Sequence record: NC_047890.1
Direction: 5' to 3' (one strand)
Source of the DNA: Escherichia phage PGT2
Length of the DNA: 42,686 bases
Below, piece after piece: positions 1-42,686 of the stretch (positions are counted from its first letter, which is position 1; each line of letters begins with the position of its first letter). The notes below the pieces were generated by a model that saw only the letters and a list, made by a program, of their open reading frames with translations, was not told where the DNA came from and ran no database searches. Made by a program: the position numbers and the translations under genes.

Positions 1-260
1 TCCAACACAAATGAGGTCGCGTTTCCCCCGTAGGCCCGGCCTTCTGGATGGCTAAATGGCTGGATGGATGGATGGCTGGACGGCTAGACGTTTAGACGGC
101 TAAATGGCCAAATGACCGTAAAAAGGGCCGTGGGCACTGATAGGGTCAATCGGGCTGTAAGCCACGCCAACCGGGGTTTCCGCACATTACTTTATAAGAG
201 AGCTTGTAAGGTGTCTGGCGGCGATCCGTCTACGACGGGAGAAGGAAAGAGACGTGGGGT
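1..260. repeat. Left direct terminal repeat (DTR), 260 bp
   Basis: Bases 1-260 are identical to 42427-42686, checked block by block. The repeat runs to the window edge, so 260 bp is a minimum length. Confidence 0.9.
48..118. repeat. Array of short imperfect ~8-bp repeats (CTRRAYGG-like) inside the terminal repeat
   Basis: ggctaaatgg ctggatgg atggatgg ctggacgg ctagacgt ttagacgg ctaaatgg ccaaatga read directly. Resembles the short repeat series in T7 terminal repeats. Confidence 0.6.
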
Positions 261-316
261 ATCTATCTTTTTGGATACGCCTATCTTTTTCTAGTCATCT
301 ATCTTCTTACGATGAG

Positions 317-336
317 CTATCTATCTATCTATCTAT
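317..336. repeat. (CTAT)5 microsatellite flanked by TATCT-TTTTT iterons
   Basis: ctatctatctatctatctat at 317-336; ctatcttttt recurs at about 263-273 and 284-294, just inside the left terminal repeat. Confidence 0.6.
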
Positions 337-383
337 CCAGCTATCCGATTATCTTCGCTTCGACGGATCGGCTATCGCCTTTC

Positions 384-413
384 TTGTCTCCGCTACGATA
401 AGGGAGCTATACT
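384..413 (+). promoter_or_regulatory. Candidate sigma70-type promoter (TTGTCT-18-TATACT)
   Basis: -35 ttgtct at 384-389, -10 tatact at 408-413, 18-bp spacer; lies upstream of the strong RBS of ORF 453. Confidence 0.3.
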
Positions 414-452
414 AAGGATTGTGTTATTGCTCTTTAAGAATGAGGTGAGATT

Positions 453-656
453 ATGGCTATACGTAATTGGGCGGCGGTGCTGGCCATTGTGGATAGTGTG
501 GGGACTGAAGCGGCGTTATCCTTGCCGTATGTTCCGGCTGATGCTAACACTATGCCGGACCGGGCCAAAAGATATGCAATTGAGTACAACATACAACGGG
601 GGAAGTATGGCGAGACCTTGCCGGAAGTACCGACGTCGTGCACTTATCGGGATTGA
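453..656 (+). CDS. Hypothetical early protein (67 aa)
   Basis: ATG at 453 preceded by SD gaggtgag with 7-nt spacing; first ORF after the terminal repeat. Confidence 0.45.
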   Translation: MAIRNWAAVLAIVDSVGTEAALSLPYVPADANTMPDRAKRYAIEYNIQRGKYGETLPEVPTSCTYRD

Positions 657-1047
657 TGTATCCGGGTATCATCCGCCGGCTGTGGTCCGGAACTGGTTAA
701 GGGATACTTTAAGGGATGAATCCAAGGGACTAGCCGATCAGCTTATTTGTAAGCCGTGGGCTGTCTGGTTAGTTTGGGCGCATGATGAGATAGATAGTAA
801 GCGGGTCAGTCTTCTGTGCTGTGTAGGGGAGCGGCAAGCCTTAACTATTATGGATAACGCGGCCCGGCTTGACGGGTATCTGTGCCGGCTGTATCAGTCC
901 GATGGCGATGCGGTCGATATTAGTCATCTGTCCGAGTATAAATCGGTGCATAACTGGACCGGATACTGGAAGCATGTACACGGTGAGGATATGCCGATGA
1001 CGATTAGTGATGACGGATTGAGAAAGCTGCGGGAGATGATAGCATGA
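607..1047 (+). CDS. Hypothetical early protein (146 aa); possibly the C-terminal part of a frameshifted product with ORF 453-656
   Basis: ATG at 607 follows a G5 run (598-602); frame is +1 relative to ORF 453 and overlaps its 3' end; a strong terminator follows the stop. Confidence 0.35.
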   Translation: MARPCRKYRRRALIGIDVSGYHPPAVVRNWLRDTLRDESKGLADQLICKPWAVWLVWAHDEIDSKRVSLLCCVGERQALTIMDNAARLDGYLCRLYQSDGDAVDISHLSEYKSVHNWTGYWKHVHGEDMPMTISDDGLRKLREMIA

Positions 1048-1051
1048 TGAT

Positions 1052-1088
1052 AAGGGGCGGGGAGTGTATCCTTGCCCCTTTCTTTTTG
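1052..1088 (+). terminator. Rho-independent terminator
   Basis: 12-bp stem aaggggcgggga / tccttgcccctt (two G-U pairs), loop gtgta, then tctttttgt. Confidence 0.6.
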
Positions 1089-1217
1089 TATTGTGGATCC
1101 CTGACGTTCTCCTGATCGGGCTTATGCACTCATGGCTGTGCGTTGGCTTGTCTTACGTGTGATTAGGTGTCTGGTGAGAACGTGGGAGATTATTTTCGAT
1201 TATTTTTAAAATATCGC

Positions 1218-1246
1218 TTGCATAGTTCGTGAGGAGGCTATATAGT
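1218..1246 (+). promoter_or_regulatory. Candidate sigma70 early promoter (TTGCAT-17-TATAGT) with AT-rich upstream region
   Basis: -35 ttgcat at 1218-1223, -10 tatagt at 1241-1246, preceded by tatttttaaaatat. Confidence 0.4.
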
Positions 1247-1442
1247 TAATTTCAACGGCGGGGTAGTGGGAAGACAAGCCGATAAAATAGGATTCCCTCC
1301 ACATGGTCAGTTACCATAGGTCATCCGAGACACCAAACGGAATAACTAACAAGTAGTAACACCGGGGCAAGGAGGCCGCCTCGAAAGAGGAAAGTAGCTG
1401 GTAATGGCGTATGAAGCATTACCCCGGTGAGAAAGAAAGAGA

Positions 1443-1471
1443 TTGACAAGTTCAGAAGTAAGCAGTAAGAT
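1443..1471 (+). promoter_or_regulatory. Candidate sigma70 early promoter (TTGACA-17-TAAGAT)
   Basis: Consensus -35 ttgaca at 1443-1448; -10 taagat at 1466-1471; shares the upstream 18-mer aagaaagagattgacaag with the promoter at 1639. Confidence 0.45.
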
Positions 1472-1638
1472 GTAAATCAAGCAGTACGGGAGGAGGCGCA
1501 ACGGAAGGCGCGACACGGCGGGGAGTGATACAAGGACGCGCCAAAGGGAGAACGGATAGGAACTGCGAACCCTTCCGGATACCCGCTACGGATAGCACAG
1601 TTTGCCGGAGTATGCAGACACGGTAAGCAAGAAAGAGA

Positions 1639-1667
1639 TTGACAAGCTGGACAAGTTACCCGATAAT
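1639..1667 (+). promoter_or_regulatory. Candidate sigma70 early promoter (TTGACA-17-GATAAT)
   Basis: Consensus -35 ttgaca at 1639-1644; -10 gataat at 1662-1667; an RBS and small ORF follow. Confidence 0.55.
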
Positions 1668-1698
1668 AAGCTCAACGAATCGCAACGAGGAGAGAGAA

Positions 1699-1857
1699 AT
1701 GACTTACTACGAATCAGCAGAGAACGAGATGATCACCGCAGCACGCGCAGAAAAAGAAGTGCGCCGCCACGGTTGCAGCGTAGCAGAATTTTACGCAGAC
1801 TGCGGTACTCATGAGGAGTACGACGCACAAGCTGTGTTAGAATGGTTAGGGTACTAA
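1699..1857 (+). CDS. Small acidic early protein (52 aa)
   Basis: ATG at 1699 preceded by SD aggagag; lies downstream of the promoter at 1639; 11 acidic versus 4 K/R residues. Confidence 0.45.
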   Translation: MTYYESAENEMITAARAEKEVRRHGCSVAEFYADCGTHEEYDAQAVLEWLGY

Positions 1858-1878
1858 CAGAAAGTTTGAAGAAATAGG

Positions 1879-1907
1879 TTGACAAGTTAAGCAGTAAGCA
1901 GTAACCT
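1879..1907 (+). promoter_or_regulatory. Candidate sigma70 early promoter (TTGACA-17-TAACCT, weak -10)
   Basis: -35 ttgaca at 1879-1884; the spacer carries two AAGCAGTA copies, paralogous to the promoter at 1443. Confidence 0.35.
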
Positions 1908-2122
1908 AGAAAGCAAGCAGTACAGCAGTATCACAGCAGCCTAGAATAGGTTGAGTCGCACTCGGTGTGAATAGCTGACCTGACAGCGATATGGTTCAGG
2001 GGGGCCGGAGGATAGACAGTGACGTCGCCAATAAGCCCAACAAACGAAAGGTTTGTTAGTGTATCCTCACAGTAGGGTACAGCAACAAACTAACCGTAAA
2101 CGCAACGTAAACGAGGCGCACC

Positions 2123-2362
2123 ATGACTACACGTACAGAATACAACGGACACAAAAACAAAACTCACTGGAATGTAAGCCTTTGGATTAATAACGATGAG
2201 GCACTTTACCAGTTGGCAAGAGAATTTATCAACGATAACAATAACCGTAATGATGCGGCCCGCGCTATGGCGTTATTTTTAGCACAGTTGGGACAAGATA
2301 AAACGCCGGACGGATTCAAATACAGCGCTACGGCGATCCGCGCCGCTATGGTTGAGATGTAA
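2123..2362 (+). CDS. Hypothetical early protein (79 aa)
   Basis: ATG with SD acgagg at 6-nt spacing; first of a run of tightly packed same-strand early ORFs. Confidence 0.55.
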   Translation: MTTRTEYNGHKNKTHWNVSLWINNDEALYQLAREFINDNNNRNDAARAMALFLAQLGQDKTPDGFKYSATAIRAAMVEM

Positions 2363-2373
2363 GGAGGCACAGC

Positions 2374-2640
2374 ATGAAACTTTCAAAACAGACCGCGACC
2401 GATATTAGAAGCGCACTCATTGGCAAGGACGTGCCAGCTATCGCAAAGGCTTATCAGGAAAAAGGTTTATCATTCACTCGCTTCATATGGGACGCGTATC
2501 ACTCTATCGGCCACGCTAAGACCAACGAGATACTGACAGCTAACAACAAGCTGACAGTTATTGGTGGCTATGTAACCGATATTAATGACAGCCATATTGA
2601 AACAATGCTAAAACTAGCGTTCAAAGATTGTAAGTTTTAA
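2374..2640 (+). CDS. Hypothetical early protein (88 aa)
   Basis: ATG preceded by strong SD aaggagg. Confidence 0.6.
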   Translation: MKLSKQTATDIRSALIGKDVPAIAKAYQEKGLSFTRFIWDAYHSIGHAKTNEILTANNKLTVIGGYVTDINDSHIETMLKLAFKDCKF

Positions 2641-2682
2641 GATAGCGGCATACAAATAAACGCAACGTAAATGAGGCGCACC

Positions 2683-3177
2683 ATGAAAGTATTAATTTCT
2701 GCATTCCGTAAAGAAAACGATCTGTTAACCCATATCAATAATCACGCGGAATTATTCGACCGCATCACCGCATTAGGATTGACGCCGCAGCCCGTCGATG
2801 GCGTGTGGAAAGGTGTATCGGAGTTTTCTTACATGGTACACGGTGTTACCACAGCGATGCTCAAAGCGTTTTATGCAATGGCCCGCGACTACAATCAGGA
2901 GGCTATCTTGCTTGTTGCTGATGATAACCGTGCCGCAGTAGTGCCCACCGATGGCCCGGTGATGGCCCCGATGATTGACGTTGGCGACTGGAGGGAAGTA
3001 AGCAAAGAGATCGCGATACAATTTGACGGATACACCAAGACACGCGACGGCCGCTATTTTGTCGCCGCCACTCGTGAGCAGTTCGGCCTCGCCACTCGTC
3101 GGCTGTTAGCCACACAGATGGGCGTAATCGCTGCTAACGAATATGCAGCACGTGTAAACGCAGTGGGAGGATTATAA
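2683..3177 (+). CDS. Hypothetical early protein (164 aa)
   Basis: Start at the second ATG (2683), chosen because the 28-nt block before it is 27/28 identical to the leader of ORF 2123; the provided ORF track begins at the in-frame ATG at 2671. Confidence 0.55.
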   Translation: MKVLISAFRKENDLLTHINNHAELFDRITALGLTPQPVDGVWKGVSEFSYMVHGVTTAMLKAFYAMARDYNQEAILLVADDNRAAVVPTDGPVMAPMIDVGDWREVSKEIAIQFDGYTKTRDGRYFVAATREQFGLATRRLLATQMGVIAANEYAARVNAVGGL

Positions 3178-3178
3178 A

Positions 3179-3427
3179 ATGCGCAAACTTAGTGAAATTG
3201 TACATCATACCAACGTATTCTATAACAGCAAGGGTTATCTGTGGATAACCCTGAAGGACGTGCGACCTGACGGGCGTCATCGTGTGGTAGTACGTAAAAT
3301 GTACAGCAAATACGTTAGTAATTGGTCATTGGATACAGTACGCATTAATAACGAGACTTTTCAGATTGACTCACAGATTGACCTACAACCAACGGCAAGC
3401 CATTCCGCACCATATTTTTCTAACTGA
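3179..3427 (+). CDS. Hypothetical early protein (82 aa)
   Basis: ATG preceded by SD gggagg; overlaps the stop of the upstream gene. Confidence 0.55.
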   Translation: MRKLSEIVHHTNVFYNSKGYLWITLKDVRPDGRHRVVVRKMYSKYVSNWSLDTVRINNETFQIDSQIDLQPTASHSAPYFSN

Positions 3428-3504
3428 ATCCGGGCCTATGCCGCGCACTCATGGGCGGCATACACACGCAGTCAGATCACTCCCATTAAATGAGGACACA
3501 GAGC

Positions 3505-3618
3505 ATGAACACAATAACATCCGGCCTTGCACTCATCGGCGCGATTATCGGCGTCGCTGTGTTTAACGCATTACCCTTGATTATTGGCGTGGCGGTCCTC
3601 AGTTGGTGGCTGTCATAA
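3505..3618 (+). CDS. Small hydrophobic peptide (37 aa), probable single-pass membrane protein
   Basis: ATG with SD gagga at 8-nt spacing; translation MNTITSGLALIGAIIGVAVFNALPLIIGVAVLSWWLS; below the 60-aa cutoff of the ORF track. Confidence 0.4.
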   Translation: MNTITSGLALIGAIIGVAVFNALPLIIGVAVLSWWLS

Positions 3619-3682
3619 TCCACGCACTCATAGCCACACTGTACGTTTCCCAATCGCATAAATCATTTTGAGATATACGCAT

Positions 3683-3862
3683 ATGAATATCAAAGAATCC
3701 GTATCCACAGAACGCGCCGCCGCCATACAGTACGCGCACGATAACCTATCACCGGATGCCTACTGGCTGTTCTGTGACCGCCTGCGAGAAACAGAAGACC
3801 TATCCCCGGATAATATCCACGCCCTTATTGTCGCAGTAGCGCAGGAGGTATCTAATGTTTGA
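3683..3862 (+). CDS. Small acidic early protein (59 aa)
   Basis: ORF track starts at TTG 3668; first in-frame ATG is 3683; weak RBS. Confidence 0.4.
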   Translation: MNIKESVSTERAAAIQYAHDNLSPDAYWLFCDRLRETEDLSPDNIHALIVAVAQEVSNV

Positions 3863-4103
3863 GGCAGCGAACGACGACCATTACAACGAAAAAACAGCGG
3901 TGGAAGAGGCACAGAAGCGCCAGCGGGATATAAATATGGCCTACTATACACGCGTGCCGCCGTTTTACGTGTTCCAGCAAGGCGCTGGCGTAGGCGTATC
4001 CTTCGGTTATGTCACGAGATACGGTTACTCCCGTGTAGGTTATGCCAGCTATTCAGATGCGGCAGAGGCGGCAGAGGCTTATTCCAGTGAGGTAGAAAGA
4101 TGA
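3855..4103 (+). CDS. Hypothetical early protein (82 aa), Tyr/Gly-rich
   Basis: ATG preceded by SD aggagg. Confidence 0.55.
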   Translation: MFEAANDDHYNEKTAVEEAQKRQRDINMAYYTRVPPFYVFQQGAGVGVSFGYVTRYGYSRVGYASYSDAAEAAEAYSSEVER

Positions 4104-4288
4104 CACAGCCTGTATATAACGTGTACCGGGGTACGGGCGTATGCGTCCGGATGACATACCGGGCTGTTCCGGGGGCCACAGTGTCCCAATTCCTCACTGA
4201 CTCCGGCTGGCAGGATAGTCTAGTGACTGAACGCACTATTCGCGCCAGTCTCCCACTCGTGGCTAAAAACGTGAGGTTCAAGGCATGA
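4100..4288 (+). CDS. Hypothetical early protein (62 aa)
   Basis: ATG preceded by SD gtgaggtag; overlaps the upstream stop. Confidence 0.5.
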   Translation: MTQPVYNVYRGTGVCVRMTYRAVPGATVSQFLTDSGWQDSLVTERTIRASLPLVAKNVRFKA

Positions 4289-4620
4289 AAATCATTAATC
4301 CGTTACATCTCATCCAGTTCGTGGTGGTTTACTTGTACACGTGGTACGCCCTACGCAGTGCGCCGCGTGTAGAAGGCTTTAACGTCGGCTGGAGTAGTCC
4401 GCACGATGACTTTCAGGTGTACTATAACGCGCAGGTCAACGTGTTAGGCGTAATCACACCAGCGCAGGACACTACATGGCAACCAGTCGGCTGGCGTGCG
4501 TGGTTCAACCTTGTCCGGGCATACGATGACCTGCTCGAACAGACCACAGCGGCGTTCATTGAAGCGTATCTCCCAGACTTCGCAGATGACATCAACGAAT
4601 CAGACACAGAGGACAAATAA
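4285..4620 (+). CDS. Hypothetical early protein (111 aa)
   Basis: ATG preceded by SD gtgagg at 8-nt spacing. Confidence 0.55.
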   Translation: MKIINPLHLIQFVVVYLYTWYALRSAPRVEGFNVGWSSPHDDFQVYYNAQVNVLGVITPAQDTTWQPVGWRAWFNLVRAYDDLLEQTTAAFIEAYLPDFADDINESDTEDK

Positions 4621-4622
4621 TT

Positions 4623-5132
4623 ATGACAAGCATCAATCCGGTAGACCTGACCACTTTAGGCGCACGAGTAACCGACCCGGCACAGTTGACAGAAGGCCGC
4701 TGGTATGTGGTCCGCGTTAACTGTAGAGGCTATACCCCACTGGTACACGCCAAATACTTGGGTATGAAAGGGCGCGCCTCACATGCGTTTGAGGTGTGCG
4801 ATGAGGATCATCTCGCGTTAAAGCGTTCTCTGGGCCTCGCCAAGCGCATCCACCGCGACAACGGTAGTATCCGCTCAGGGAAGATTGATGGCGGCGGTAT
4901 CTGCGAGATATTCAAGTTTAAGCAGGCGACAGCTACCCGATCCAATGCGCCGCAGCCCACCGCAACCTTATCCACAGTGGACCAATTCAAATCAGAGATT
5001 GACGCGTTACGTGCCAAGGCTACACAGAAGCGCGACCAGATTGCTCAGCTCTCAGAAGAGATTGCCGGGATTAACATCGCTATCTACGACACACGCAAGA
5101 AACTCAAAGCCAGCTTAGAGGGTTACATCTAA
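4623..5132 (+). CDS. Hypothetical early protein (169 aa)
   Basis: ATG two bases after the upstream stop; long ORF in the gene-dense early block. Confidence 0.55.
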   Translation: MTSINPVDLTTLGARVTDPAQLTEGRWYVVRVNCRGYTPLVHAKYLGMKGRASHAFEVCDEDHLALKRSLGLAKRIHRDNGSIRSGKIDGGGICEIFKFKQATATRSNAPQPTATLSTVDQFKSEIDALRAKATQKRDQIAQLSEEIAGINIAIYDTRKKLKASLEGYI

Positions 5133-5150
5133 TGCTTGAAGGTGACAAAC

Positions 5151-5462
5151 ATGAAACCGAATCAAAAGAAAATCCCCGCGCTCCTGCTATGCTCAGTCGG
5201 CCTGTTATGGGCGGTGGCGGGGGTCAATCAGGCGTATGCTTCGACCCATATGCAGCGGGAGACAGTGACGTTCAACAGTCTTTTCAAGTCGGATGGGATG
5301 ACTATCAGTGAGTATTGTTCTGTGACATTGCAGGGCAATACACAGATTGTTGAAGCATCCTGCTACGGCATACTGAAACCCACAGTGACGGACTTACAAC
5401 GCCGCTATCCACTCGTGGCCTTCCACGTGATTATCAATGGCGAGTCACTGAACACTATTTGA
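5151..5462 (+). CDS. Predicted secreted/periplasmic early protein (103 aa) with N-terminal signal peptide
   Basis: N-terminus MKPNQKKIPALLLCSVGLLWAVAGVNQAYAS has a basic n-region, hydrophobic core and AxA-like cleavage site; two Cys in the mature part; ORF track start 5136 is a TTG. Confidence 0.55.
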   Translation: MKPNQKKIPALLLCSVGLLWAVAGVNQAYASTHMQRETVTFNSLFKSDGMTISEYCSVTLQGNTQIVEASCYGILKPTVTDLQRRYPLVAFHVIINGESLNTI

Positions 5463-5470
5463 GGTGTATC

Positions 5471-5761
5471 ATGGAATTATCTGATGATGAACTGCGCCTG
5501 ATTCGTCGGGCGCTGGCGTTCGCAGTCCGTCACCTGCATGTATGTGCCGATGAAGCACGAGACAACCACCGCATTAAAGAGAAGCTCGACTGTCAGGTCG
5601 AAGCAGCACGGTTAACCACACTATCGGAGAAACTCCATGGGCAAATCATCAAACAACTCAAAGCCAAATCTCAAAACACTACACGAGGAACTGAGGGATG
5701 CGGAGCCAGATGCACTAATCTCTGTGCGGCAGGCGCGTGTCCTAATCGCCAGTCTGATTAA
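5471..5761 (+). CDS. Hypothetical early protein (96 aa)
   Basis: ATG with SD gagg at 6-nt spacing; its 3' part overlaps ORF 5637 in another frame. Confidence 0.4.
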   Translation: MELSDDELRLIRRALAFAVRHLHVCADEARDNHRIKEKLDCQVEAARLTTLSEKLHGQIIKQLKAKSQNTTRGTEGCGARCTNLCAAGACPNRQSD

Positions 5762-5963
5762 CCTCCAGAATGTTGTGGTGTCATTGATGGACACCATGGA
5801 CCATAACACCAAAATCATGAACGACTCCCACGCAGCGACGAATGAGAATTTCATCGGGCTGTTAGGCATCTGTAAGGTGCTGGGCCGGGAGTTAAACGTC
5901 GAGATTAACGGCATCAACGAGGCCACCACAGGCTCCCCATACAACAACAAAACGAGGCACTAA
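5637..5963 (+). CDS. Hypothetical early protein (108 aa)
   Basis: ATG with SD ggag at 7-nt spacing; overlaps ORF 5471 by about 125 nt. Confidence 0.4.
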   Translation: MGKSSNNSKPNLKTLHEELRDAEPDALISVRQARVLIASLINLQNVVVSLMDTMDHNTKIMNDSHAATNENFIGLLGICKVLGRELNVEINGINEATTGSPYNNKTRH

Positions 5964-5964
5964 T

Positions 5965-6270
5965 ATGAGCGAACGTATCTGCGTACCATATGCACGTAAA
6001 GGCAATCCAGACGTACACACTATCGTAATCCCAGCAGGCTTTATCAGTCTGGAAGACCTCTTGTCCCATGTCGGCTTCCAGCTTGGCATGGGCGACCAGT
6101 TGCTGGATGAGATTAACGGCCTTCTGGCACAGGAATACACAGCAGGCAAGCGCGCGCTGGCTGAAGTCCTGAGCCGGGCTACTCATAGCGCGACGTACAC
6201 TCCCAACATGGAGGATGCGCACCGTATCCTGACGGCTGAAGAATTGGGGTATGCAAATGACCGTGAGTAA
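5965..6270 (+). CDS. Hypothetical early protein (101 aa)
   Basis: ATG preceded by acgaggc-type SD. Confidence 0.55.
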   Translation: MSERICVPYARKGNPDVHTIVIPAGFISLEDLLSHVGFQLGMGDQLLDEINGLLAQEYTAGKRALAEVLSRATHSATYTPNMEDAHRILTAEELGYANDRE

Positions 6271-16332: not shown

Positions 16333-17052
16333 ATGTTGTTAATGCTCTCTGGCGCGATTGGCGCTGGCAAAGATACCTTCGGTGAGTTCCTGTACGACTC
16401 ATTCGACAAGTTCGGCTACAGCGTGGAAGTGGTGAAGTTTGCCGACCCCATTCGTGAAGCTGCATTTAAGCTCGGATTCAATCCAGATGACCGGGCAACC
16501 AAGGAAGTCCCTGCAATACGCCATTATAAACTCTCAGAACTTGATGAGGCCATTTTTACTACTCATACCTGCCTGACACCTTACGAGCGCCGAATGGTCG
16601 CTGTACGAGTTCACCAGAGATTAATTAACATTCGCAAGGAGAAACATGATGGCATCTACAAGCCTGTCGTCAGTACGCGAGAATTTATGCAGGTCGTCGG
16701 TGGGACTGTACGAGACGCTAAAGAAGATTATTACATCCAGCACATGCTTCTCAATACACCAGAATCACGCGTTAACATCTGCACTGATACTCGGTTCATC
16801 AACGAGCAGCGAATTGGGGATTATTCGGTCTACGTTGAGCGCCCAAACAACCCGTTGGCGGTTCATACCCGCGACGCGTCGGAAGCAGCACAAGCGTTGC
16901 TCCGGGGGGCGGCGAAGAAAGTAATCCTGAACAACAGCACTCTGGATAATCTGGCTGAAGAAGCCGATTACGTGGCTACAACATTAATTTCAAAAGGGTA
17001 TTGTGATGACGCAGTTAAAGACGCAGGCGGAACTGGAATCTTTATCGAGTGA
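16333..17052 (+). CDS. P-loop deoxynucleoside monophosphate kinase-like protein
   Basis: N-terminal P-loop MLLMLSGAIGAGKDT resembles T4 dNMP kinase MKLIFLSGVKRSGKDT; strong SD tgagga. Confidence 0.6.
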   Translation: MLLMLSGAIGAGKDTFGEFLYDSFDKFGYSVEVVKFADPIREAAFKLGFNPDDRATKEVPAIRHYKLSELDEAIFTTHTCLTPYERRMVAVRVHQRLINIRKEKHDGIYKPVVSTREFMQVVGGTVRDAKEDYYIQHMLLNTPESRVNICTDTRFINEQRIGDYSVYVERPNNPLAVHTRDASEAAQALLRGAAKKVILNNSTLDNLAEEADYVATTLISKGYCDDAVKDAGGTGIFIE

Positions 17053-18976
17053 GCGCGGTCTTGCCAAGCTGATGGCCGAGTGTGAGCAGGCTGAATCAGC
17101 GGGGCGTGCATCCGGCGCGTTTTATGCCAAGCAGTTGTTAGAGCGTTTTGTTAACCGTATGGCCGAACGTATTGACCACGAGATGGCGAATCCGGGTGCT
17201 GGCCGCGCGAAAGCGCATAAGAAACTGGTCGCTGTGTTTGACTCCAAAGTCACTGCGTTTATTTCTGTATCAACCACATTGAACATGCTGATGGTCAACG
17301 AGCAGACACCGGGCACCAGCCTTAGTCGCGCCCTCGGCAATGCAATGTATAACGAACTGTTCTGTACCACATTCGACGATGCCAACCCGGACCTGTTTCA
17401 CACCATCTGCAAGGACTTGGATAAGCGCCAGAGCAAATCCAGCCGCCACCGCATGACGGTACTGAAGAATCAGGCAGCGAAGAAGGGTATCGCGTGGGAG
17501 AACTGGACCGTCACCGAAATCCTTCAGGTCGGTGAGTGGTGTCTGGATAATCTGGTGTCAGTTGGTCTGTGCGAAACGCATACCGAGGTGTCTCGCGGTA
17601 AGGCGAAGATGTACGTGGAACTGTCCGACGAGGCGCTGGGAATGATTGAGGATACCAAACGTCTGGTGTCCTTCTTCCGGCCCCAGCGCCTCCCGTTCGT
17701 AGAGAAGCCTCTGGACTGGACCGGGATTGTTGGTGGTGGCTACCATACTGCTCGTATGCAGAGTACGATGCCTCGTTGCATCAAAGCCAGCCCGACCCAG
17801 ATGGATGTACTCATAAAGCACCGTGACGACTACAAGGATACGGTGGTGGCGTGCATTAACACTCTGCAATCGGTAGAGTGGCGTATCAACAAGCGTATTC
17901 TGGAAGTGCAGCAGCAGATGTTCCGAGGCTTTGAGCCGAAGAACAAGCCTGATGCTCTGGAGTGTCATAGCAAGGACGTTGAAGAGTGGACCGAGGCAGA
18001 TAAATCTCTACACAGCCACTGGAAGAAGGAAATGGCTCGCTGGTACACAGAGCAGCGTGCAGAGCGTTATGCCGCTTCACGACATGCCTACACGTTGTCA
18101 GTGGCACGAGAGTTCGCTGACTACCCGCGTATCTGGTTCATGTACTTCGCCGACTGGCGCGGGCGTTATTACCCGGCCACCACAGGCATCTCGCCGCAGG
18201 GGACCGACATCTCTAAATCCATGCTGGAGTTCGCCAATGGCAAGCCCATCTCTGACCCAATCGCAGAACAGTTCTTCTTCCTCCTTGGTTCAACTAAATT
18301 CGGATTCGACAAAGGCTCTATATCCGAACGAGTTCAGTGGGTTCACAAGAATCACGACCTTATCTTGGCGTGTGCCGACGAACCGCTACTACATACTGAT
18401 TTCTGGTACAGAGAAGCAGATAAGAAGACCCGCTACCAATTTCTGGCATGGTGTTTTGAATATGCTGAATACACGCGGTTCCCAGCTGGATTTGTATCAC
18501 GACTTCCGGTGTCTCTTGATGGCACATGTAATGGCCTACAACACTATTCGGCGATGCTACGAGATTCGGTTGGTGCTAAGGCTACCAACCTGTTACCTGC
18601 TAACCGACCAAACGATATTTACGCGCAAGTCGCAGGCGTTGTCACCAACCTTCTTGAAAGCATGTCACCTGCCGACTTCCCGGCACTGACACGCGAATCT
18701 AAGCCTCTCAGCGTCTATGAGGTGGACTTCTTCCGTAGGGCATGGTTACACCACGGTATCAGCCGTAGCCTCGTTAAACGGTGCGTTATGACGTTACCTT
18801 ACGGGTCCAAGAAGTTCAGCATGGGTCGCTTCATCAAAGGCGACTACATGATGGACATTCACCCGGAAGAGTTCGACACCGACGACTACACCGACGCAAA
18901 GTATGTTCCCGCCAGACCAGAGTTCGGTGACCTCGATTTAGAGCAGGTCAATCACTCCGAATACTTCTTCCTGTAG
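17006..18976 (+). CDS. T7-like single-subunit RNA polymerase, apparently lacking the C-terminal ~190 aa (motif C and C-terminus)
   Basis: PLDWTGIVGGGY, DWRGRYY...PQGTD, FLAWCFEYA, LDGTCNGLQHYSAMLRD (motif A) and VMTLPYGSKKF (motif B) align with T7 RNAP; the ORF stops about 50 residues after motif B. Confidence 0.85.
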   Translation: MTQLKTQAELESLSSERGLAKLMAECEQAESAGRASGAFYAKQLLERFVNRMAERIDHEMANPGAGRAKAHKKLVAVFDSKVTAFISVSTTLNMLMVNEQTPGTSLSRALGNAMYNELFCTTFDDANPDLFHTICKDLDKRQSKSSRHRMTVLKNQAAKKGIAWENWTVTEILQVGEWCLDNLVSVGLCETHTEVSRGKAKMYVELSDEALGMIEDTKRLVSFFRPQRLPFVEKPLDWTGIVGGGYHTARMQSTMPRCIKASPTQMDVLIKHRDDYKDTVVACINTLQSVEWRINKRILEVQQQMFRGFEPKNKPDALECHSKDVEEWTEADKSLHSHWKKEMARWYTEQRAERYAASRHAYTLSVAREFADYPRIWFMYFADWRGRYYPATTGISPQGTDISKSMLEFANGKPISDPIAEQFFFLLGSTKFGFDKGSISERVQWVHKNHDLILACADEPLLHTDFWYREADKKTRYQFLAWCFEYAEYTRFPAGFVSRLPVSLDGTCNGLQHYSAMLRDSVGAKATNLLPANRPNDIYAQVAGVVTNLLESMSPADFPALTRESKPLSVYEVDFFRRAWLHHGISRSLVKRCVMTLPYGSKKFSMGRFIKGDYMMDIHPEEFDTDDYTDAKYVPARPEFGDLDLEQVNHSEYFFL

Positions 18977-19139: not shown

Positions 19140-19169
19140 GGGGTTTCCGCACATTATTTTAATAAGGGG
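19140..19169 (+). promoter_or_regulatory. Conserved 28-bp element GGGGTTTCCGCACATTAYTTTA(A)TAAGRG; candidate phage promoter or other regulatory site
   Basis: Near-identical copies at 173-200 and 42599-42626 (inside the terminal repeats); first 17 nt identical, then 1 mismatch and 1 indel. Confidence 0.4.
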
Positions 19170-35714: not shown

Positions 35715-35743
35715 GGTGGGCTTCGGCCCACCTCTATTTTATT
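35715..35743 (+). terminator. Rho-independent terminator between the gp16-like gene and the tail fiber gene
   Basis: Perfect 7-bp stem ggtgggc / gcccacc with loop ttcg, then tctattttatt. Confidence 0.6.
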
Positions 35744-35753
35744 GGAGATTTTG

Positions 35754-38516
35754 ATGGCTATTACGTTTTATGCTACCAACAACTTCACTGGTGATGGTAC
35801 TACCGTAAACTGGAATATTAACTTCGCAGACGGTTATATCGACATCACCACCGTGAAGGCGCGGTATCTGGATAATACCGGGAGCTACGTTGACATCGCT
35901 ATTTCAAGCGTGGCAGGAAACGTAGTAACCATTTCCCCGGCTGTGGCGGACGGTCAGGAGTTCCAAATCTATCGTGATACAGAGAAGCGGTTCCCGCTGG
36001 TGGACTTCTCTGACGGTGCAATCCTCAACGAGACTAACCTTGACACGCTGGCTACTCAAGCTGTGATGGTGTCTGCTGAGGCATTCGACCAGTCTAACAA
36101 CGGTGTGCGTATCGCAGGTGATTCCTTGGTTGTTGCACAGGGTATCGACGCCAAGGCACAGGAAGCTCTGGACAACTCCGAGGCTGCTGTAGCTACAGCG
36201 AACGGTATCGACGGTAAAGCGCAGACGGCATTGAATACCGCCGCCGCCGCTGTCGCCACGGCTAATGCTGCCACATCTACTGCTGCTGGTGCTGTATCTA
36301 CGGCCAACACCGCACTGTCTACTGCCCACGATGCCGCCGATGACGCAGCTACCGCTATCACTACCGCTAACGGCGCTGTGATTACGGCCAATGCTGCAAC
36401 CACTACGGCCAACGCCGCTAGTGCTGCCGCCTCTGCTGCAACGACTACTGCGAACAGTGCTGCAAACGACGCTGCTACTGCTGTGTCTACTGCGGGTACG
36501 GCCTTGTCTACTGCGAACACCGCATCTACCAACGCCTCTACCGCTGTGTCCACGGCTAACGGCGCTAAGGCTACTGCTGAGGGTATCGAGGCTAAAGCGG
36601 ATTCTGCTTTGGCAGCCTCTGCTACCGCTGTGTCCACAGCTAACTCAGCCGAGGCTACGGCCAACGCTATCGACGGTAAGGCTACGGACGCATTAGACAC
36701 TGCCGACTCCGCTGTGGCTACGGCTAACGCTGCTGTTTCTACGGCTAACTCTGCTACTGCTACGGCTAATGCTGCCTCTTCTACTGCGAGTTCGGCTGCC
36801 TCTGACGCCAGTACCGCCTTGAGCACAGCTAATGCTATTGACGCAAAGGCACAGACTGCTTTGGATAATACCACGGCTCTGGATGCGGCCACCATGAAGA
36901 AAGCCGCCAACTTATCTGATATTGCGGATAAGGCGGCTGCATGGCTTAACGTCCGTCCTATTGGCTCCACGCCATTGGCAGGCGACCCGGTAGGGGATTA
37001 CGATGCTGTTACTAAGCGTTGGGTAGAGAACCTGATTAACACAGGTACTGTCGGTCCAACCATGAACGGGGTGATGAACTTCGGCGTCGGTGACTTCCAT
37101 CTCCGGGATAGCCGCGCGTACATCCAGCCTTATGAGGTTGTCTCTGACGGTCAGTTACTGAACCGCGCTGACTGGCCTGAACTTTGGGCCTACGCCCAAA
37201 TGCTGTCGCCTATAACGGATGCAGCTTGGTTGGCAGACCCTCTCAAGCGCGGCGCTTACTCTACCGGAAACGGAACCACTACCTTCCGAGTACCGGATAG
37301 GAACGGTGTTCAGTCAGGCTCTGTAAGGGCGCTTTTTGGGCGTGGTGACGGTGGGAACTCTTCTATCGGCAGTACCATCATGGAGTCCTTCGTACCGAAT
37401 ATCACGGCTACGTTAAATATGCACGGTGCTGGTCCCGCATCAGAACCTGCCGCTGGTACTAACGTGGCAGGATTTGGTGGTGCCTTGGTTGCTACGGGAG
37501 AGGCTCTCCCGAGATACCTGCGTGGGGTTACTCTGTTATCTGCTGGTGGTAACTCCTATGGTGGAGCTACCTTCGATGCCTCCCGTTCCAGTGCTGCTTA
37601 TGGTCGTGGTGGTCTGACTACGGATGAGGTTCTGCCGCGTAACTTCACTGGTGTATGGGTAATTCGTGCATCTGGCGGCTTCGTAGCGGCTAATACGCAG
37701 TGGCAGGTTATAAACCAAGATGCGACTAGGCCCGGTAACGGTACTGCCGTCTTAGGTGGTAATATTGTATCTGAGTACCGCGTTGGTGGTGCCTTGGAGG
37801 GTACAGCAAACTTCCGTATGGCGGGTACTATCGATGGTTCGTATGGCGCGCGCATTGCTGTTTATAATGCCACATCTTTAAATGGCGCCAGCTTCGATTT
37901 TACAGAGCACGGGAACATAGAGACTCCCCTTGGTAGGGCTATTGTTATAGGCAACTATGGTATAGGTTCGCAAGCAGATGCTATACCTACTTCGAGGGAT
38001 AACGCATTTATCTCTAACGCTGATAGTAATAGTTCTTGGTCTGCTTCTAACGGGGGTGGCTTTCAAATTACATATGCAGCTAACCGTATCGTCCAGTTCT
38101 GGGTAAGTCAAGGTGGTACTACGGCTTATTTCCGTGCTAATAGCACAGACAGTAACCCCCAACGACCGAAGTCTGCATCTCCTTGGGTCACACTCCAGAA
38201 TGCTGGTACTTCGGACGCTAATGTAAAAACCGTCCTCGGTGACTTAGACTTATCTATACCGTTGAGTAATATCAACGCACTGGAGTTTAAGAAATTCCGC
38301 TACAACAAGGATGGTGAGGATGGCCCGGTTCGACGGGGCATTATCGCGCAGCAGGCGCAGAATGTGGACCCGGAGTACGTACATTCTGCGGATAAGTCCG
38401 GGGTTATGACTCTTGATAGTAACCCGCTGCTGTTGGATGCTCTAGCTGCTGTCAAAGCACTATCTGCTAAAGTGGCCGCTCTGGAAGAGCGTATTGATGA
38501 ACTAACTTCTCAGTAA
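35754..38516 (+). CDS. Tail fiber protein: T7 gp17-like N-terminal adaptor, Ala/Thr/Ser-rich repeat shaft, C-terminal intramolecular chaperone domain
   Basis: N-terminus LVDFSDGAILNETNLDTLATQAVMVSAEA parallels T7 gp17 [29 protein letters not shown]; C-terminus GIIAQQAQ...LAAVKALSAKVAALEERIDELT is chaperone-like; ORF track start 35742 is a TTG. Confidence 0.8.
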   Translation: MAITFYATNNFTGDGTTVNWNINFADGYIDITTVKARYLDNTGSYVDIAISSVAGNVVTISPAVADGQEFQIYRDTEKRFPLVDFSDGAILNETNLDTLATQAVMVSAEAFDQSNNGVRIAGDSLVVAQGIDAKAQEALDNSEAAVATANGIDGKAQTALNTAAAAVATANAATSTAAGAVSTANTALSTAHDAADDAATAITTANGAVITANAATTTANAASAAASAATTTANSAANDAATAVSTAGTALSTANTASTNASTAVSTANGAKATAEGIEAKADSALAASATAVSTANSAEATANAIDGKATDALDTADSAVATANAAVSTANSATATANAASSTASSAASDASTALSTANAIDAKAQTALDNTTALDAATMKKAANLSDIADKAAAWLNVRPIGSTPLAGDPVGDYDAVTKRWVENLINTGTVGPTMNGVMNFGVGDFHLRDSRAYIQPYEVVSDGQLLNRADWPELWAYAQMLSPITDAAWLADPLKRGAYSTGNGTTTFRVPDRNGVQSGSVRALFGRGDGGNSSIGSTIMESFVPNITATLNMHGAGPASEPAAGTNVAGFGGALVATGEALPRYLRGVTLLSAGGNSYGGATFDASRSSAAYGRGGLTTDEVLPRNFTGVWVIRASGGFVAANTQWQVINQDATRPGNGTAVLGGNIVSEYRVGGALEGTANFRMAGTIDGSYGARIAVYNATSLNGASFDFTEHGNIETPLGRAIVIGNYGIGSQADAIPTSRDNAFISNADSNSSWSASNGGGFQITYAANRIVQFWVSQGGTTAYFRANSTDSNPQRPKSASPWVTLQNAGTSDANVKTVLGDLDLSIPLSNINALEFKKFRYNKDGEDGPVRRGIIAQQAQNVDPEYVHSADKSGVMTLDSNPLLLDALAAVKALSAKVAALEERIDELTSQ
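36100..36900. repeat. Imperfect tandem codon repeats (STAN/ATAN units) inside the tail fiber gene
   Basis: About 16 copies of nCyACnGCnAAy (encoding x-T-A-N) at roughly 7-, 11- and 14-residue spacing. Confidence 0.7.
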
Positions 38517-42426: not shown

Positions 42427-42686
42427 TCCAACACAAATGAGGTCGCGTTTCCCCCGTAGGCCCGGCCTTCTGGATGGCTAAATGGCTGGATGGATGGATG
42501 GCTGGACGGCTAGACGTTTAGACGGCTAAATGGCCAAATGACCGTAAAAAGGGCCGTGGGCACTGATAGGGTCAATCGGGCTGTAAGCCACGCCAACCGG
42601 GGTTTCCGCACATTACTTTATAAGAGAGCTTGTAAGGTGTCTGGCGGCGATCCGTCTACGACGGGAGAAGGAAAGAGACGTGGGGT
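42427..42686. repeat. Right direct terminal repeat (DTR), 260 bp
   Basis: Exact copy of 1-260. Confidence 0.9.

What the first reader, a model, noticed from the sequence alone, without database searches (positions are those of the whole stretch)
1218..1907. Tandem cluster of four sigma70-like early promoters sharing an extended upstream block
Three promoters carry a perfect TTGACA -35 with -10 elements at 17-bp spacing. Two of them share the 18-mer AAGAAAGAGATTGACAAG, and AAGCAGTA recurs at least five times in the spacers and flanks. A TTGCAT-17-TATAGT promoter with an AT-rich upstream region lies at 1218. The layout parallels the A1/A2/A3 host-polymerase promoters of T7 and suggests strong early transcription by host RNAP.
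Basis: partly seen in the sequence, partly recalled or inferred. Interest (0 to 1): 0.45.

Follow-up and report, generated by a model that had tools for sequence, protein, structure and literature searches.

The report
Host-polymerase early promoter array of phage PGT2
This is the cluster of host-type (sigma-70) early promoters at the leading end of a T7-like coliphage genome, an expected feature.

Summary
The window is the whole genome of E. coli phage PGT2 (Autographiviridae, Ermolevavirus).

**Promoters**
- Four same-strand sigma-70-like promoters lie at 1218-1907: P1 TTGCAT-17-TATAGT, P2 TTGACA-17-TAAGAT, P3 TTGACA-17-GATAAT, P4 TTGACA-17-TAACCT.
- The shared 18-mer and the five AAGCAGTA copies are real and more than chance.
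- P2 resembles T7 A2 beyond the hexamers.
- P1-, P2- and P4-type promoters are conserved in phiKT, Drulisvirus, Wanjuvirus, Unyawovirus and Berlinvirus. The Drulisvirus homologues were already predicted as host promoters.
- The array lies upstream of early genes, including a T3-type SAM lyase.
- The T7 A1/A2/A3 reading is therefore supported by homology and context. It is not tested by experiment, and P4 is probably weak.

**What is added here**
- Only P3 directly precedes a gene.
- The other promoters each precede a 110-140-nt non-coding block (A, B, C). Blocks A and B, and a hairpin module before P2, show compensatory base changes. None matches Rfam or E. coli genomes.
- The blocks are shared at up to 92% identity between genera.
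- Breakpoints between relatives fall at the promoter cores and the AAGCAGTAC start motif.
- A fifth promoter (P0, 384), with a boxA-like element and its own terminator, lies upstream.

The promoters are a new member of a known kind. The leader RNAs are the only possibly new element.

The parts
384..413 (+). P0: extra sigma-70-like promoter TTGTCT-18-TATACT. It lies upstream of the array and outside the finding.
   Evidence: scores it 9/12. The phiKT homologue TTGTCT-18-TATAAT scores 10/12.
428..440 (+). boxA-like element TGCTCTTTAAGAA in the P0 leader.
   Evidence: It is the only genome match to rrn boxA TGCTCTTTAACAA within 2 mismatches (it has 1), and it is conserved in phiKT. That this is the boxA consensus is from my own knowledge.
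453..1047 (+). Two overlapping ORFs (453-656 and 655-1047) of the P0 operon, function unknown.
   Evidence: No PHROG or Pfam hit. Conserved in phiKT.
1052..1090 (+). Intrinsic terminator that closes the P0 operon and separates it from the array.
   Evidence: 12-bp stem with 7 GC pairs, followed by TCTTTTTGTA.
1185..1217 (+). A/T-rich UP-element-like region of P1, containing GATTATTTT twice.
   Evidence: 88% A+T. The homologous A/T block is present in phiKT, Drulisvirus and Wanjuvirus P1-type promoters.
1218..1246 (+). P1: TTGCAT-17-TATAGT, predicted start about 1254.
   Evidence: Conserved as TTGCAC/TTGCTT/TTGCAT ... TATAAC/TATAGT/TAGAGT in 11 relatives from three genera (Ermolevavirus, Drulisvirus, Wanjuvirus).
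1254..1359 (+). Block A: structured non-coding leader module.
   Evidence: Homologues occur in Drulisvirus, Wanjuvirus and Unyawovirus early leaders. There are 7 of 17 pairs and 4 of 13 pairs with compensatory changes; slid controls give 0. Absent from phiKT.
1360..1429 (+). HP module. It has an outer stem CACCGGGG/CCCCGGTG, a CCTC-GAAA-GAGG hairpin, the AGTAGCTGG motif, and a TAATG/CATTA hairpin with loop GCGTATGAAG.
   Evidence: (I4). The stem sequence differs but stays complementary in phiKT, Minorna, DU_PP_II, Arno160/PP2 and T7/P1338.
1425..1442 (+). Shared upstream block CGGTGAGAAAGAAAGAGA of P2. It combines the 3' arm of the hairpin with an A-rich proximal UP-like tract.
   Evidence: D8. 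Also present in Berlinvirus Carena as cacGGTGAGAAAGcagTTGACAag.
1443..1471 (+). P2: TTGACA-17-TAAGAT, T7 A2-like, predicted start 1479.
   Evidence: (10/12).
1479..1487 (+). AAGCAGTAC at the predicted +1 of P2.
   Evidence: The same motif lies 7 nt after the -10 in P4, phiKT and the Drulisvirus promoters.
1487..1628 (+). Block B: structured non-coding module ending in hairpin GTTTGCCG...CGGTAAGC with the conserved loop GAGTATGCAGACA.
   Evidence: It is 92% identical in Minorna and phiKT. The 3' half is present in P1338, Carena and nasanit. Five of 23 pairs are compensatory and 98% of cells are paired. One- and two-nt indels exclude coding.
1621..1638 (+). Shared upstream block CGGTAAGCAAGAAAGAGA of P3.
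   Evidence: D2.
1639..1667 (+). P3: TTGACA-17-GATAAT, the best consensus match, predicted start about 1675.
   Evidence: 11/12.
1699..1857 (+). 52-aa early gene with RBS GAGGAG at 1687-1692. It is the only gene directly served by a promoter of the array.
   Evidence: phrog_25588, E = 3e-33. Its homologue is the first gene of PhiM1-like phages. Absent from phiKT.
1879..1907 (+). P4: TTGACA-17-TAACCT, with a weak -10 that keeps T-12, A-11 and T-7. Predicted start 1915.
   Evidence: Homologues have TAATTT (phiKT) and TAACTT (Minorna and Klebsiella Drulisvirus). Predicted as a host promoter in PMC4411677.
1915..2040 (+). Block C: non-coding leader that starts with AAGCAGTAC.
   Evidence: About 87% identical in phiKT only. 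The hairpin CGCAC-TCG-GTGTG corresponds to CGCA-TTGAG-TGCG in phiKT.
2051..2090 (+). Long imperfect hairpin just upstream of the first downstream gene. It is a candidate RNase III-type processing site (inference).
   Evidence: (I2: 17-nt arms, 82% complementary) and the MFE.
2123..3177 (+). Downstream early genes: DUF7249 (2123-2362), phrog_9817 (2374-2640) and SAM lyase (2671-3177).

Best explanation
The region is the early-promoter array of coliphage PGT2.

**What happens at infection (inferred)**
After the left genome end enters the cell, E. coli RNA polymerase with sigma-70 binds four tandem, same-strand promoters:
- P1 at 1218, helped by an A/T-rich UP-like element.
- P2 at 1443 and P3 at 1639, each with a perfect -35 and an A-rich proximal upstream block.
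- P4 at 1879, with a perfect -35 and a weak -10.

This would produce nested rightward transcripts that express the early genes: the 52-aa ORF, DUF7249, the SAM lyase anti-restriction gene and those that follow. As in T7, this transcription probably also helps draw the DNA in.

**Modular layout**
- P1 precedes block A and the hairpin module.
- P2 precedes block B.
- P3 precedes the small gene.
- P4 precedes block C, a long hairpin and then the genes.

The blocks are purine-rich, folded, non-coding leader RNAs. They most likely act in cis, either by protecting the roughly 450-nt (from P1) and 200-nt (from P4) untranslated leaders against Rho and RNases, or by providing processing sites.

**How the array evolves**
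The promoter cores and the AAGCAGTAC start motif double as homology patches. Through them, modules are exchanged between Autographiviridae genera.

**Shown and inferred**
- Shown: the sequence elements, their conservation and homology, compensatory changes, and breakpoint positions.
- Inferred: promoter activity and strength, transcript start sites, the role of the leaders, and the recombination mechanism.
For: **Elements and statistics**

**Phage identity and context**
- The window is phage PGT2, with 260-bp terminal repeats.
- The RNAP gene lies at 17-19 kb.
- The early genes include a SAM lyase.

**Homology to experimentally known and previously predicted promoters**
- T7 A1-A3 are annotated in NC_001604. 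P2 against A2 gives 45 of 62 identities, above every one of 300 shuffles.
- The Drulisvirus homologues are listed as predicted host promoters in PMC4411677.

**Conservation across genera**
- The -35, TAnnnT -10, 17-nt spacing, 7-nt discriminator and AGCAGTA start are conserved.
- The candidate phage-RNAP promoter motif is different.

**RNA-level constraint on the + strand**
- AT skew is +0.41 to +0.47 and GC skew is +0.10 to +0.25 over 1300-1800.
- The ORF candidates in the blocks have no family hits, and homologue alignments contain frame-breaking indels.
- Covariation in blocks A and B exceeds the shuffled and slid controls.
- Six different complementary stems occupy the same hairpin position.

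**Module exchange**
- PGT2 against phiKT differs by insertion of [A + HP + P2] and by replacement of HP with [P3 + orf].
- Minorna against NER40 swaps block A for block B + HP. The swap runs exactly between AAGCA(A/G)TACGG and the next TTGACAAG.
Against: - No transcript 5'-end, expression or binding data exist for PGT2 or phiKT.
- The P1 -35 (3/6) and the P4 -10 (3/6) are poor. The total count of consensus matches in 1-6000 is not above chance.
- The array starts 1.2 kb from the genome end. That is beyond the roughly 850 bp that T7 injects without transcription (my knowledge of T7).
- No boxA lies downstream of the array, although T7, Carena, DU_PP_II, Arno160, PP2 and PhiM1 have one there.
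- The covariation rests on 5-12 related sequences, and the structures were derived from those same alignments.
- Helix 4 of block A is doubtful. In Klebsiella phages it behaves as a co-varying direct repeat.
- The MFE z-score for block B alone is unremarkable (-0.74).
Confidence: 0.8

Rival explanations
1. The promoter-like repeats are mainly recombination junctions, working as PeSL-like shuffling cassettes. Only some of them (for example P2 and P3) fire appreciably, while P1 and/or P4 are decayed or weak passengers.
For: - Breakpoints between relatives coincide with the promoter cores.
- P2 and P3 arrived with insertions that are absent from phiKT.
- The P4 -10 and the P1 -35 are each 3/6.
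- There is a precedent in T4-type phages (PMC2839356, PMC4122927).
Against: - P1- and P4-type promoters are the most widely conserved of the four. They keep the -35, the critical -10 positions, the spacing and the start motif across three or more genera. That argues for selection on promoter function.
- The two roles are not mutually exclusive.
Confidence: 0.3
2. Each promoter plus block is an independent small-RNA gene. On this reading, blocks A, B and C are discrete trans-acting RNAs made at the very start of infection, for example decoys or inhibitors of host defence or RNA-decay factors, rather than cis leaders.
For: - The blocks begin at the predicted +1.
- They are structured and show compensatory changes.
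- They have conserved loops (GCGTATGAAG, GAGTATGCAGACA).
- They move between genera at up to 92% identity while the flanks differ.
- They have no Rfam match.
Against: - No terminator-like site follows any block. Defined 3' ends would therefore need processing.
- In Arno160 and PP2, block A has no promoter of its own.
- There are no expression data.
Confidence: 0.15
3. The repeats are promoters for the phage's own single-subunit RNA polymerase.
For: Autographiviridae carry repeated phage-specific promoters, and the repeats here share more than the hexamers.
Against: - The shared core is the sigma-70 consensus at canonical spacing.
- It occurs only at the left end.
- It matches the T7 host promoters A2/A3.
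- A different 22-mer recurs at 173, 19140 and 42599, as expected for a phage promoter.
Confidence: 0.02
4. The matches are chance consensus hits in an A-rich intergenic region.
For: The simple scan finds about as many promoter-like sites as shuffles do.
Against: The clustering statistics, the internal repeats and the cross-genus conservation all argue against chance.
Confidence: 0.01

Closest known systems
T7 early E. coli promoters A1, A2 and A3 (annotated at 498, 626 and 750 in NC_001604)
   Same: - Tandem same-strand sigma-70 promoters lie just inside the left terminal repeat.
- They are upstream of the anti-restriction gene and the other class I genes.
- The first promoter has an A/T-rich upstream region.
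- P2 shares TTGACAA, GAAGTAA, GCAGTAAGAT and AAATC with A2.
- An AGTAG-motif-plus-hairpin element precedes A2 in T7, as it precedes P2 here.
   Different: - There are four promoters plus an upstream P0, rather than three.
- Spacing is 200-240 nt rather than about 125 nt.
- The array lies 1.2-1.9 kb from the end.
- A protein gene is embedded between P3 and P4.
- No boxA or R0.3-type sequence follows the array.
- The RNAP gene lies at 17 kb, the phiKMV-type gene order.
Predicted host promoters of KP34-like (Drulisvirus) Klebsiella phages (Eriksson et al. 2015, PMC4411677, Table 3)
   Same: - TTGACACCGCGAAGAACATAAGCTAGATT followed by AGCAGTACGG corresponds to the P2 type.
- TTGACAAGTT...GAGTAACTT followed by AGCAAGCAGTA corresponds to P4.
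- The order is the same: P1-type, then a structured RNA, then P2-type, then block A, then P4-type.
   Different: - Those promoters are in-silico predictions only.
- That paper does not describe the conserved RNA blocks.
- PGT2 carries block A behind P1 and block B behind P2, and adds P3 plus a gene.
PeSL (promoter-early stem-loop) cassettes of T4-type phages (Arbiol et al. 2010, PMC2839356; Comeau et al. 2014, PMC4122927)
   Same: Near-identical sigma-70-like early promoters sit next to stem-loops. They flank small accessory units and mark the indel and replacement breakpoints between close relatives.
   Different: - The host family is different (Autographiviridae).
- The stem-loops here lack a U-tract and are not terminator-like.
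- Most of the units they flank are non-coding RNAs rather than ORFs.
- There are only a few copies, all at one locus.
- Mini-circles were not examined.
Cis-acting leader elements that modify host RNAP or protect transcripts: rrn/T7 boxA, HK022 put RNA and the T7 R0.3 RNase III site (my knowledge)
   Same: These are structured or conserved RNA elements placed directly downstream of early promoters and upstream of the first gene. That is a plausible functional analogy for blocks A-C and the 2051-2090 hairpin.
   Different: - There is no sequence or Rfam similarity.
- The only boxA-like element in PGT2 follows P0, not the array.
- The function of the blocks is untested.

Membership tests
Sigma-70 (housekeeping) bacterial promoter | -35 hexamer close to TTGACA | tested here: met
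   P2, P3 and P4 match 6/6. P1 (TTGCAT) matches 3/6, compensated by an UP-like A/T tract.
Sigma-70 (housekeeping) bacterial promoter | -10 hexamer close to TATAAT, with A at position 2 and T at position 6, 17 +/- 1 bp after the -35 | tested here: met
   - TATAGT matches 5/6, TAAGAT 4/6, GATAAT 5/6 and TAACCT 3/6.
- All four keep A2 and T6.
- All four spacers are exactly 17 nt.
Sigma-70 (housekeeping) bacterial promoter | Transcription initiates 6-8 nt downstream of the -10 with the sigma-70 holoenzyme | not testable with these tools
   This needs 5'-end mapping or in vitro transcription. Predicted starts are 1254, 1479, 1675 and 1915.
T7-group early (class I) promoter array | Tandem rightward host promoters near the left end, inside the terminal repeat boundary and upstream of early genes | tested here: met
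   - The terminal repeat is 1-260.
- The array is at 1218-1907, all on the + strand.
- SAM lyase and other small early genes lie downstream.
T7-group early (class I) promoter array | Sequence homology to the mapped T7 promoters | tested here: met
   - P2 against A2 gives 45 of 62 identities, above all 300 shuffles.
- The AGTAG motif plus upstream hairpin is shared with T7 546-588.
- For P3 and P4, similarity to A1-A3 is not above shuffles.
T7-group early (class I) promoter array | boxA and an RNase III site (R0.3) between the array and the first gene | tested here: not met
   - No GCTCTTTAA lies after the array. The only boxA-like site is at 428-440, behind P0.
- A different long hairpin lies at 2051-2090.
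PeSL cassettes (T4-type phages) | Strong sigma-70-like early promoter joined to a stem-loop that terminates transcription | tested here: not met
   - Hairpins abut P2 (1402-1421 within 1360-1429) and P3 (1600-1628).
- Neither has a U-tract or appears in the terminator scan.
PeSL cassettes (T4-type phages) | Indels and replacements between close relatives are bounded by the cassettes | tested here: met
   PGT2 against phiKT, and Minorna against NER40 and PGT2.
Any Rfam 15 RNA family (for blocks A, B, C and HP) | Covariance-model match | tested here: not met
   cmscan of 1-4000 at E <= 10 returned only a spurious snoRNA hit at 993-1026.

The most novel reading that the evidence does not exclude
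The blocks between the promoters (A, B, C and the GCGUAUGAAG hairpin module) would be a previously undescribed set of structured RNAs specific to the immediate-early leaders of enterobacterial Autographiviridae. They would be exchanged between genera as promoter-bounded cassettes. They would have a specific function at the onset of infection, such as a boxA-independent anti-Rho or antitermination action on host RNAP, or trans-acting decoys against host defence or RNA-decay factors, rather than being mere spacers.
Probability: 0.25. Interest if true: 0.6.

Novelty: new member of a known kind. Interest (0 to 1): 0.35.

Why it matters
**The promoter array**
For the promoters themselves it matters little. 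A host-polymerase early promoter array is expected at the left end of any T7-like phage, and close homologues have already been predicted. It does correct and complete the annotation of PGT2 and phiKT. The phiKT RefSeq record shows no early promoters over the stretch examined (L001), and it labels a site at the P0-operon terminator as a 'late promoter'.

**The leader modules**
The more useful outcome is the map of leader modules.
- At least two (A and B), plus a hairpin element that reaches as far as T7, show compensatory evolution.
- They are absent from Rfam.
- They are shared at high identity between phage genera that otherwise share no nucleotide similarity in this early region.

This gives a concrete, testable set of candidate cis- or trans-acting early RNAs. 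It also extends the idea that early promoters serve as recombination joints from T4-type phages to T7-type phages.

Tried and rejected
- **Rfam.** A scan of 1-4000 at E <= 10 found nothing relevant.
- **Block B in public collections.** IMG/VR returned only phiKT, Minorna and the window itself. The single metagenome scan returned one Minorna-like contig.
- **Loose hairpin pattern.** GCGTATGAAG-N4-30-TTGACA in IMG/VR gave 120 or more, mostly chance, hits. After filtering for a flanking stem, only PGT2, phiKT, Minorna and DU_PP_II remained.
- **E. coli genomes.** No similarity to 1180-2125 was found, so the blocks are not host-derived.
- **Literature search with block sequences.** Only unrelated primer matches turned up.
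- **Small ORFs inside the blocks.** None has a PHROG hit, and alignments show frame-breaking indels, so coding is rejected.
- **Phage-RNAP promoter reading.** Rejected.
- **The 16-mer at 39741.** CAAGAAAGAGATTGAC recurs inside the terminase gene with no -10 after it, so it is not a promoter.
- **AAGCAGTAC as a pause element.** The idea was that it acts as a -10-like sigma-dependent pause element. It matches at most 3 of 6 positions, so the idea was dropped.
- **MAFFT alignment of the short hairpin module.** The result was unreliable, so the stems were read directly from the sequences.
- **Helix 4 of block A.** It is not trusted, because in Klebsiella phages the two arms change in parallel as a direct repeat.
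Full report
**Identity of the window**

The window is the complete genome of Escherichia coli phage PGT2.
- It is 42,686 bp long, with 260-bp terminal repeats found directly (D2). This matches the genome announcement PMC5773715.
- Its only close relative is phiKT (Autographiviridae, Ermolevavirus). The core is 94% identical, while the early left end is only patchily similar.
- The phage has a single-subunit RNA polymerase gene at 17003-18976.
- It also has a family A DNA polymerase, a helicase and a primase.

**Check of the observation**

| Promoter | -35 | Spacer | -10 |
|---|---|---|---|
| P1 | TTGCAT 1218-1223 | 17 nt | TATAGT 1241-1246 |
| P2 | TTGACA 1443-1448 | 17 nt | TAAGAT 1466-1471 |
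| P3 | TTGACA 1639-1644 | 17 nt | GATAAT 1662-1667 |
| P4 | TTGACA 1879-1884 | 17 nt | TAACCT 1902-1907 |

- P1 is preceded by an 88% A+T tract that contains GATTATTTT twice.
- The 18-mer AAGAAAGAGATTGACAAG occurs at 1433 and 1629. The repeat is 26 nt long at 92% identity.
- P2 and P4 share a 60-nt stretch at 82% identity.
- AAGCAGTA occurs six times in the genome, five of them between 1460 and 1922. The expectation is 1.3, and no shuffle reached six.
- Only 19 TTGACA hexamers occur on both strands of the genome. Three of the four TTGACA-N16-18-[TG]AnnnT composites are in this array.
- P3 and P2 are the two best consensus matches in the first 6 kb.

The weak points:
- The overall number of promoter-like sites in 1-6000 is not above shuffles (11 against 8.5).
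- The P1 -35 matches consensus at only 3 of 6 positions.
- The P4 -10 also matches at only 3 of 6 positions, although it keeps T-12, A-11 and T-7.

**Are they host promoters?**

The comparative evidence is strong.
- The T7 record annotates the E. coli promoters A1, A2 and A3 at 498, 626 and 750.
- P2 aligns to A2 beyond the hexamers: TTGACAA, GAAGTAA, GCAGTAAGAT and AAATC. That is 45 of 62 identities, against 36.6 +/- 2.4 for shuffles with a maximum of 42.
- A table of all TTGAC[AT] sites in the early leaders of 15 phages shows a common design. It consists of TTGACA, 17 nt, TA(A/G)nnT, a 7-nt discriminator, and then (A)AGCAGTA.
- This design is seen in PGT2 P2 and P4, phiKT, Minorna and five Klebsiella or E. 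coli Drulisvirus phages.
- The P4 type (TTGACAAG...AG-TAACYT-AGAnAGC-AAGCA) is conserved with the -10 as TAACTT or TAATTT. The poor -10 is therefore a retained feature and not decay.
- The P1 type is conserved in 11 relatives from three genera: Ermolevavirus, Drulisvirus and Wanjuvirus. It consists of an A/T-rich tract, TTGC(A/T)(T/C), 17-18 nt, and TATAGT, TATAAC or TAGAGT.
- The Drulisvirus homologues were already listed as predicted host sigma-70 promoters by Eriksson et al. 2015 (PMC4411677, Table 3).
- A different 22-mer, GGGGTTTCCGCACATTAYTTTA, recurs at 173 (in the terminal repeat), 19140 (just after the RNAP gene) and 42599. It is the better candidate for a phage-RNAP promoter.
- Downstream of the array lie small early genes and a SAM lyase of the T3 0.3 type (PF23780, 8e-24).

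Activity and strength remain inferred.

**What lies between the promoters**

Only P3 directly serves a gene. That gene is a 52-aa ORF at 1699-1857 with a GAGGAG ribosome-binding site.
- It belongs to phrog_25588 (E = 3e-33).
- Its homologues are the first gene of PhiM1-like Pectobacterium phages.

The other intervals are non-coding.
- The ORF candidates there have no family hits.
- Homologue alignments contain 1- and 2-nt indels.
- The + strand is strongly purine-rich, with AT skew of +0.41 to +0.47 and GC skew of +0.10 to +0.25. This points to a constraint on the transcript.

*Block A (1254-1359)*
- It has homologues just downstream of the equivalent promoter in Klebsiella and E. coli Drulisvirus phages and in Unyawovirus DU_PP_II.
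- In Wanjuvirus Arno160 and PP2 it has no promoter of its own.
- RNAalifold predicts four helices, and 7 of 17 pairs show compensatory changes.
- On a 12-sequence alignment of the first three helices, 97% of cells pair. Helix 3 shows the series G-C, G-U, A-U, C-G. All slid controls give zero compensatory pairs.
- Helix 4 is doubtful, because in Klebsiella phages its arms co-vary as a direct repeat.

*Hairpin module (1360-1429)*
- It has an outer stem CACCGGGG/CCCCGGTG.
- Inside are a CCTC-GAAA-GAGG hairpin and the motif AGTAGCTGG.
- It also contains a hairpin TAATG/CATTA with loop GCGTATGAAG.
- The same position holds CCGATA/TATCGG in phiKT, CCGGTG/CACCGG in Minorna and CCACCA/TGGTGG in DU_PP_II.
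- It holds GGTTGA/TCAACC in Arno160 and PP2, and CCTG/CAGG upstream of A2 in T7 and P1338.
- That makes six different complementary stems after a conserved AGTAG motif.

*Block B (1487-1628)*
- It is 92% identical in Minorna (Drulisvirus) and phiKT.
- Its 3' half is present in P1338 and in Berlinvirus Carena and nasanit. In each case it lies directly behind an A2/A3-type promoter.
- Five of 23 predicted pairs are compensatory and 98% of cells pair.
- The terminal hairpin GTTTGCCG/CGGTAAGC becomes GCTTATTG/CGATAAGC in Carena, around an invariant loop.

*Block C (1915-2040)*
- It is shared only with phiKT.

*Searches outside the phages*
- None of these blocks matches Rfam or any complete E. coli genome.
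- A literature search with their sequences found nothing.

**Modularity**

- Relative to phiKT, PGT2 has [block A + hairpin module + P2] inserted between P1 and block B.
- In PGT2, [P3 + 52-aa gene] also replaces the hairpin module ahead of P4.
- Within Drulisvirus, Minorna carries block B plus the hairpin module where NER40 and others carry block A.
- Collinearity there breaks exactly after AAGCA(A/G)TACGG at the predicted +1 and resumes at the next TTGACAAG.
- That A-rich tract lies where a proximal UP subsite would be (my reading, based on the published UP consensus).
- The block is also present in Carena as GGTGAGAAAGcagTTGACAag.
- Promoters as recombination joints are known from the PeSL cassettes of T4-type phages (PMC2839356, PMC4122927).
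- The hairpins here differ from PeSL stem-loops in that they are not terminators.

**Mechanism proposed**

- *Shown:* the elements, their conservation, the compensatory changes and the breakpoint positions.
- *Inferred, from established T7 biology:* E. coli sigma-70 holoenzyme initiates at P1-P4 as the left end enters the cell. This gives nested rightward early transcripts.
- *More speculative:* the folded, purine-rich leaders act in cis to keep long untranslated RNA from Rho and nucleases or to provide processing sites. The 2051-2090 hairpin is the obvious RNase III candidate.
- Acting in trans remains a minority possibility, because no terminator-like 3' ends follow the blocks.

**Comparison and verdict**

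The array is a new member of a known kind, namely T7 A1-A3 and the KP34-type predicted host promoters. It fails one T7-group feature:
- No boxA or R0.3 sequence follows the array.
- T7, Carena, DU_PP_II, Arno160, PP2 and PhiM1 all have GCTCTTTAACAA at that position.
- In PGT2 and phiKT the only boxA-like sequence (TGCTCTTTAAGAA, 428-440) follows a separate upstream promoter, P0 (384-413).
- The two-gene P0 operon ends at a strong intrinsic terminator (1052-1090) just before the array.

Interest is modest for the promoters. The leader RNA modules are the part worth an experiment.

Noticed in passing
window 384-1090: A separate 'pre-array' unit lies upstream of the finding. It comprises promoter P0 (TTGTCT-18-TATACT), a boxA-like TGCTCTTTAAGAA at 428-440, two overlapping ORFs (453-656 and 655-1047) with no PHROG or Pfam hit, and a strong intrinsic terminator at 1052-1090. 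It is conserved in phiKT but unannotated there. In other T7-like phages the boxA sits after the promoter array instead.
   Followed up: partly
window 2141-2200 (inside ORF 2123-2362, DUF7249): A 60-nt stretch is 95-98% identical at the DNA level to most of the 205 phage records that matched the 1100-2200 query. These are mostly large E. coli myophages of about 140-385 kb (Phapecoctavirus, Justusliebigvirus and similar), which are otherwise unrelated to this podophage.
   Followed up: no
window 2097-2126 and 2657-2686: A 30-nt translation-initiation region (TAAACGCAACGTAAAYGAGGCGCACCATGA) is duplicated at 97% identity. The copies flank two genes (2123-2362 and 2374-2640) that phiKT lacks, so the arrangement looks like a cassette insertion by recombination at the repeat.
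   Followed up: partly
window 173-194, 19140-19161, 42599-42620: GGGGTTTCCGCACATTAYTTTA recurs in the terminal repeat and just after the RNAP gene. It is a candidate phage-RNAP promoter, analogous in position to T7 phiOL.
   Followed up: partly
window 17003-18976: The RNA polymerase ORF is at most 657 aa. Its Pfam RNA_pol match covers only profile positions 16-183 of 448, which is short for a T7-type RNAP. Possible explanations are a 454-sequencing frameshift or a truncated or divergent C-terminus.
   Followed up: no
window 39741-39756: The 16-mer CAAGAAAGAGATTGAC from the P3 upstream block recurs inside the large terminase gene. No -10 element follows it, so the repeat is probably coincidental or coding-driven.
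   Followed up: yes
L134-L138, L140, L145 (Drulisvirus block A, 3' part): A direct repeat co-varies between phages: CCGGAC..CCGGAC, CGGAC..CGGAC and CGAAC..CGAAC. This is unusual and is not explained by a simple hairpin.
   Followed up: no
L001 2904-2946 (phiKT record): The phiKT RefSeq record annotates a BPROM 'P3 late promoter' over what corresponds to the end of the P0 operon and its terminator. It shows none of the early promoters described here over the stretch examined.
   Followed up: yes
window 36244-36829: An extended 21-nt-periodic repeat array (GCTGCTACTGCTGTGTCTACT-like, Ala/Thr/Ser-rich) lies inside the 924-aa ORF 35742-38516, presumably a tail fibre.
   Followed up: no
window 40-80 and 296-345: Short tandem repeats lie in and next to the terminal repeat: GGATGG/GGCTGGATGG in the first range and CTATCTAT runs in the second. 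They are typical of T7-like genome ends.
   Followed up: no
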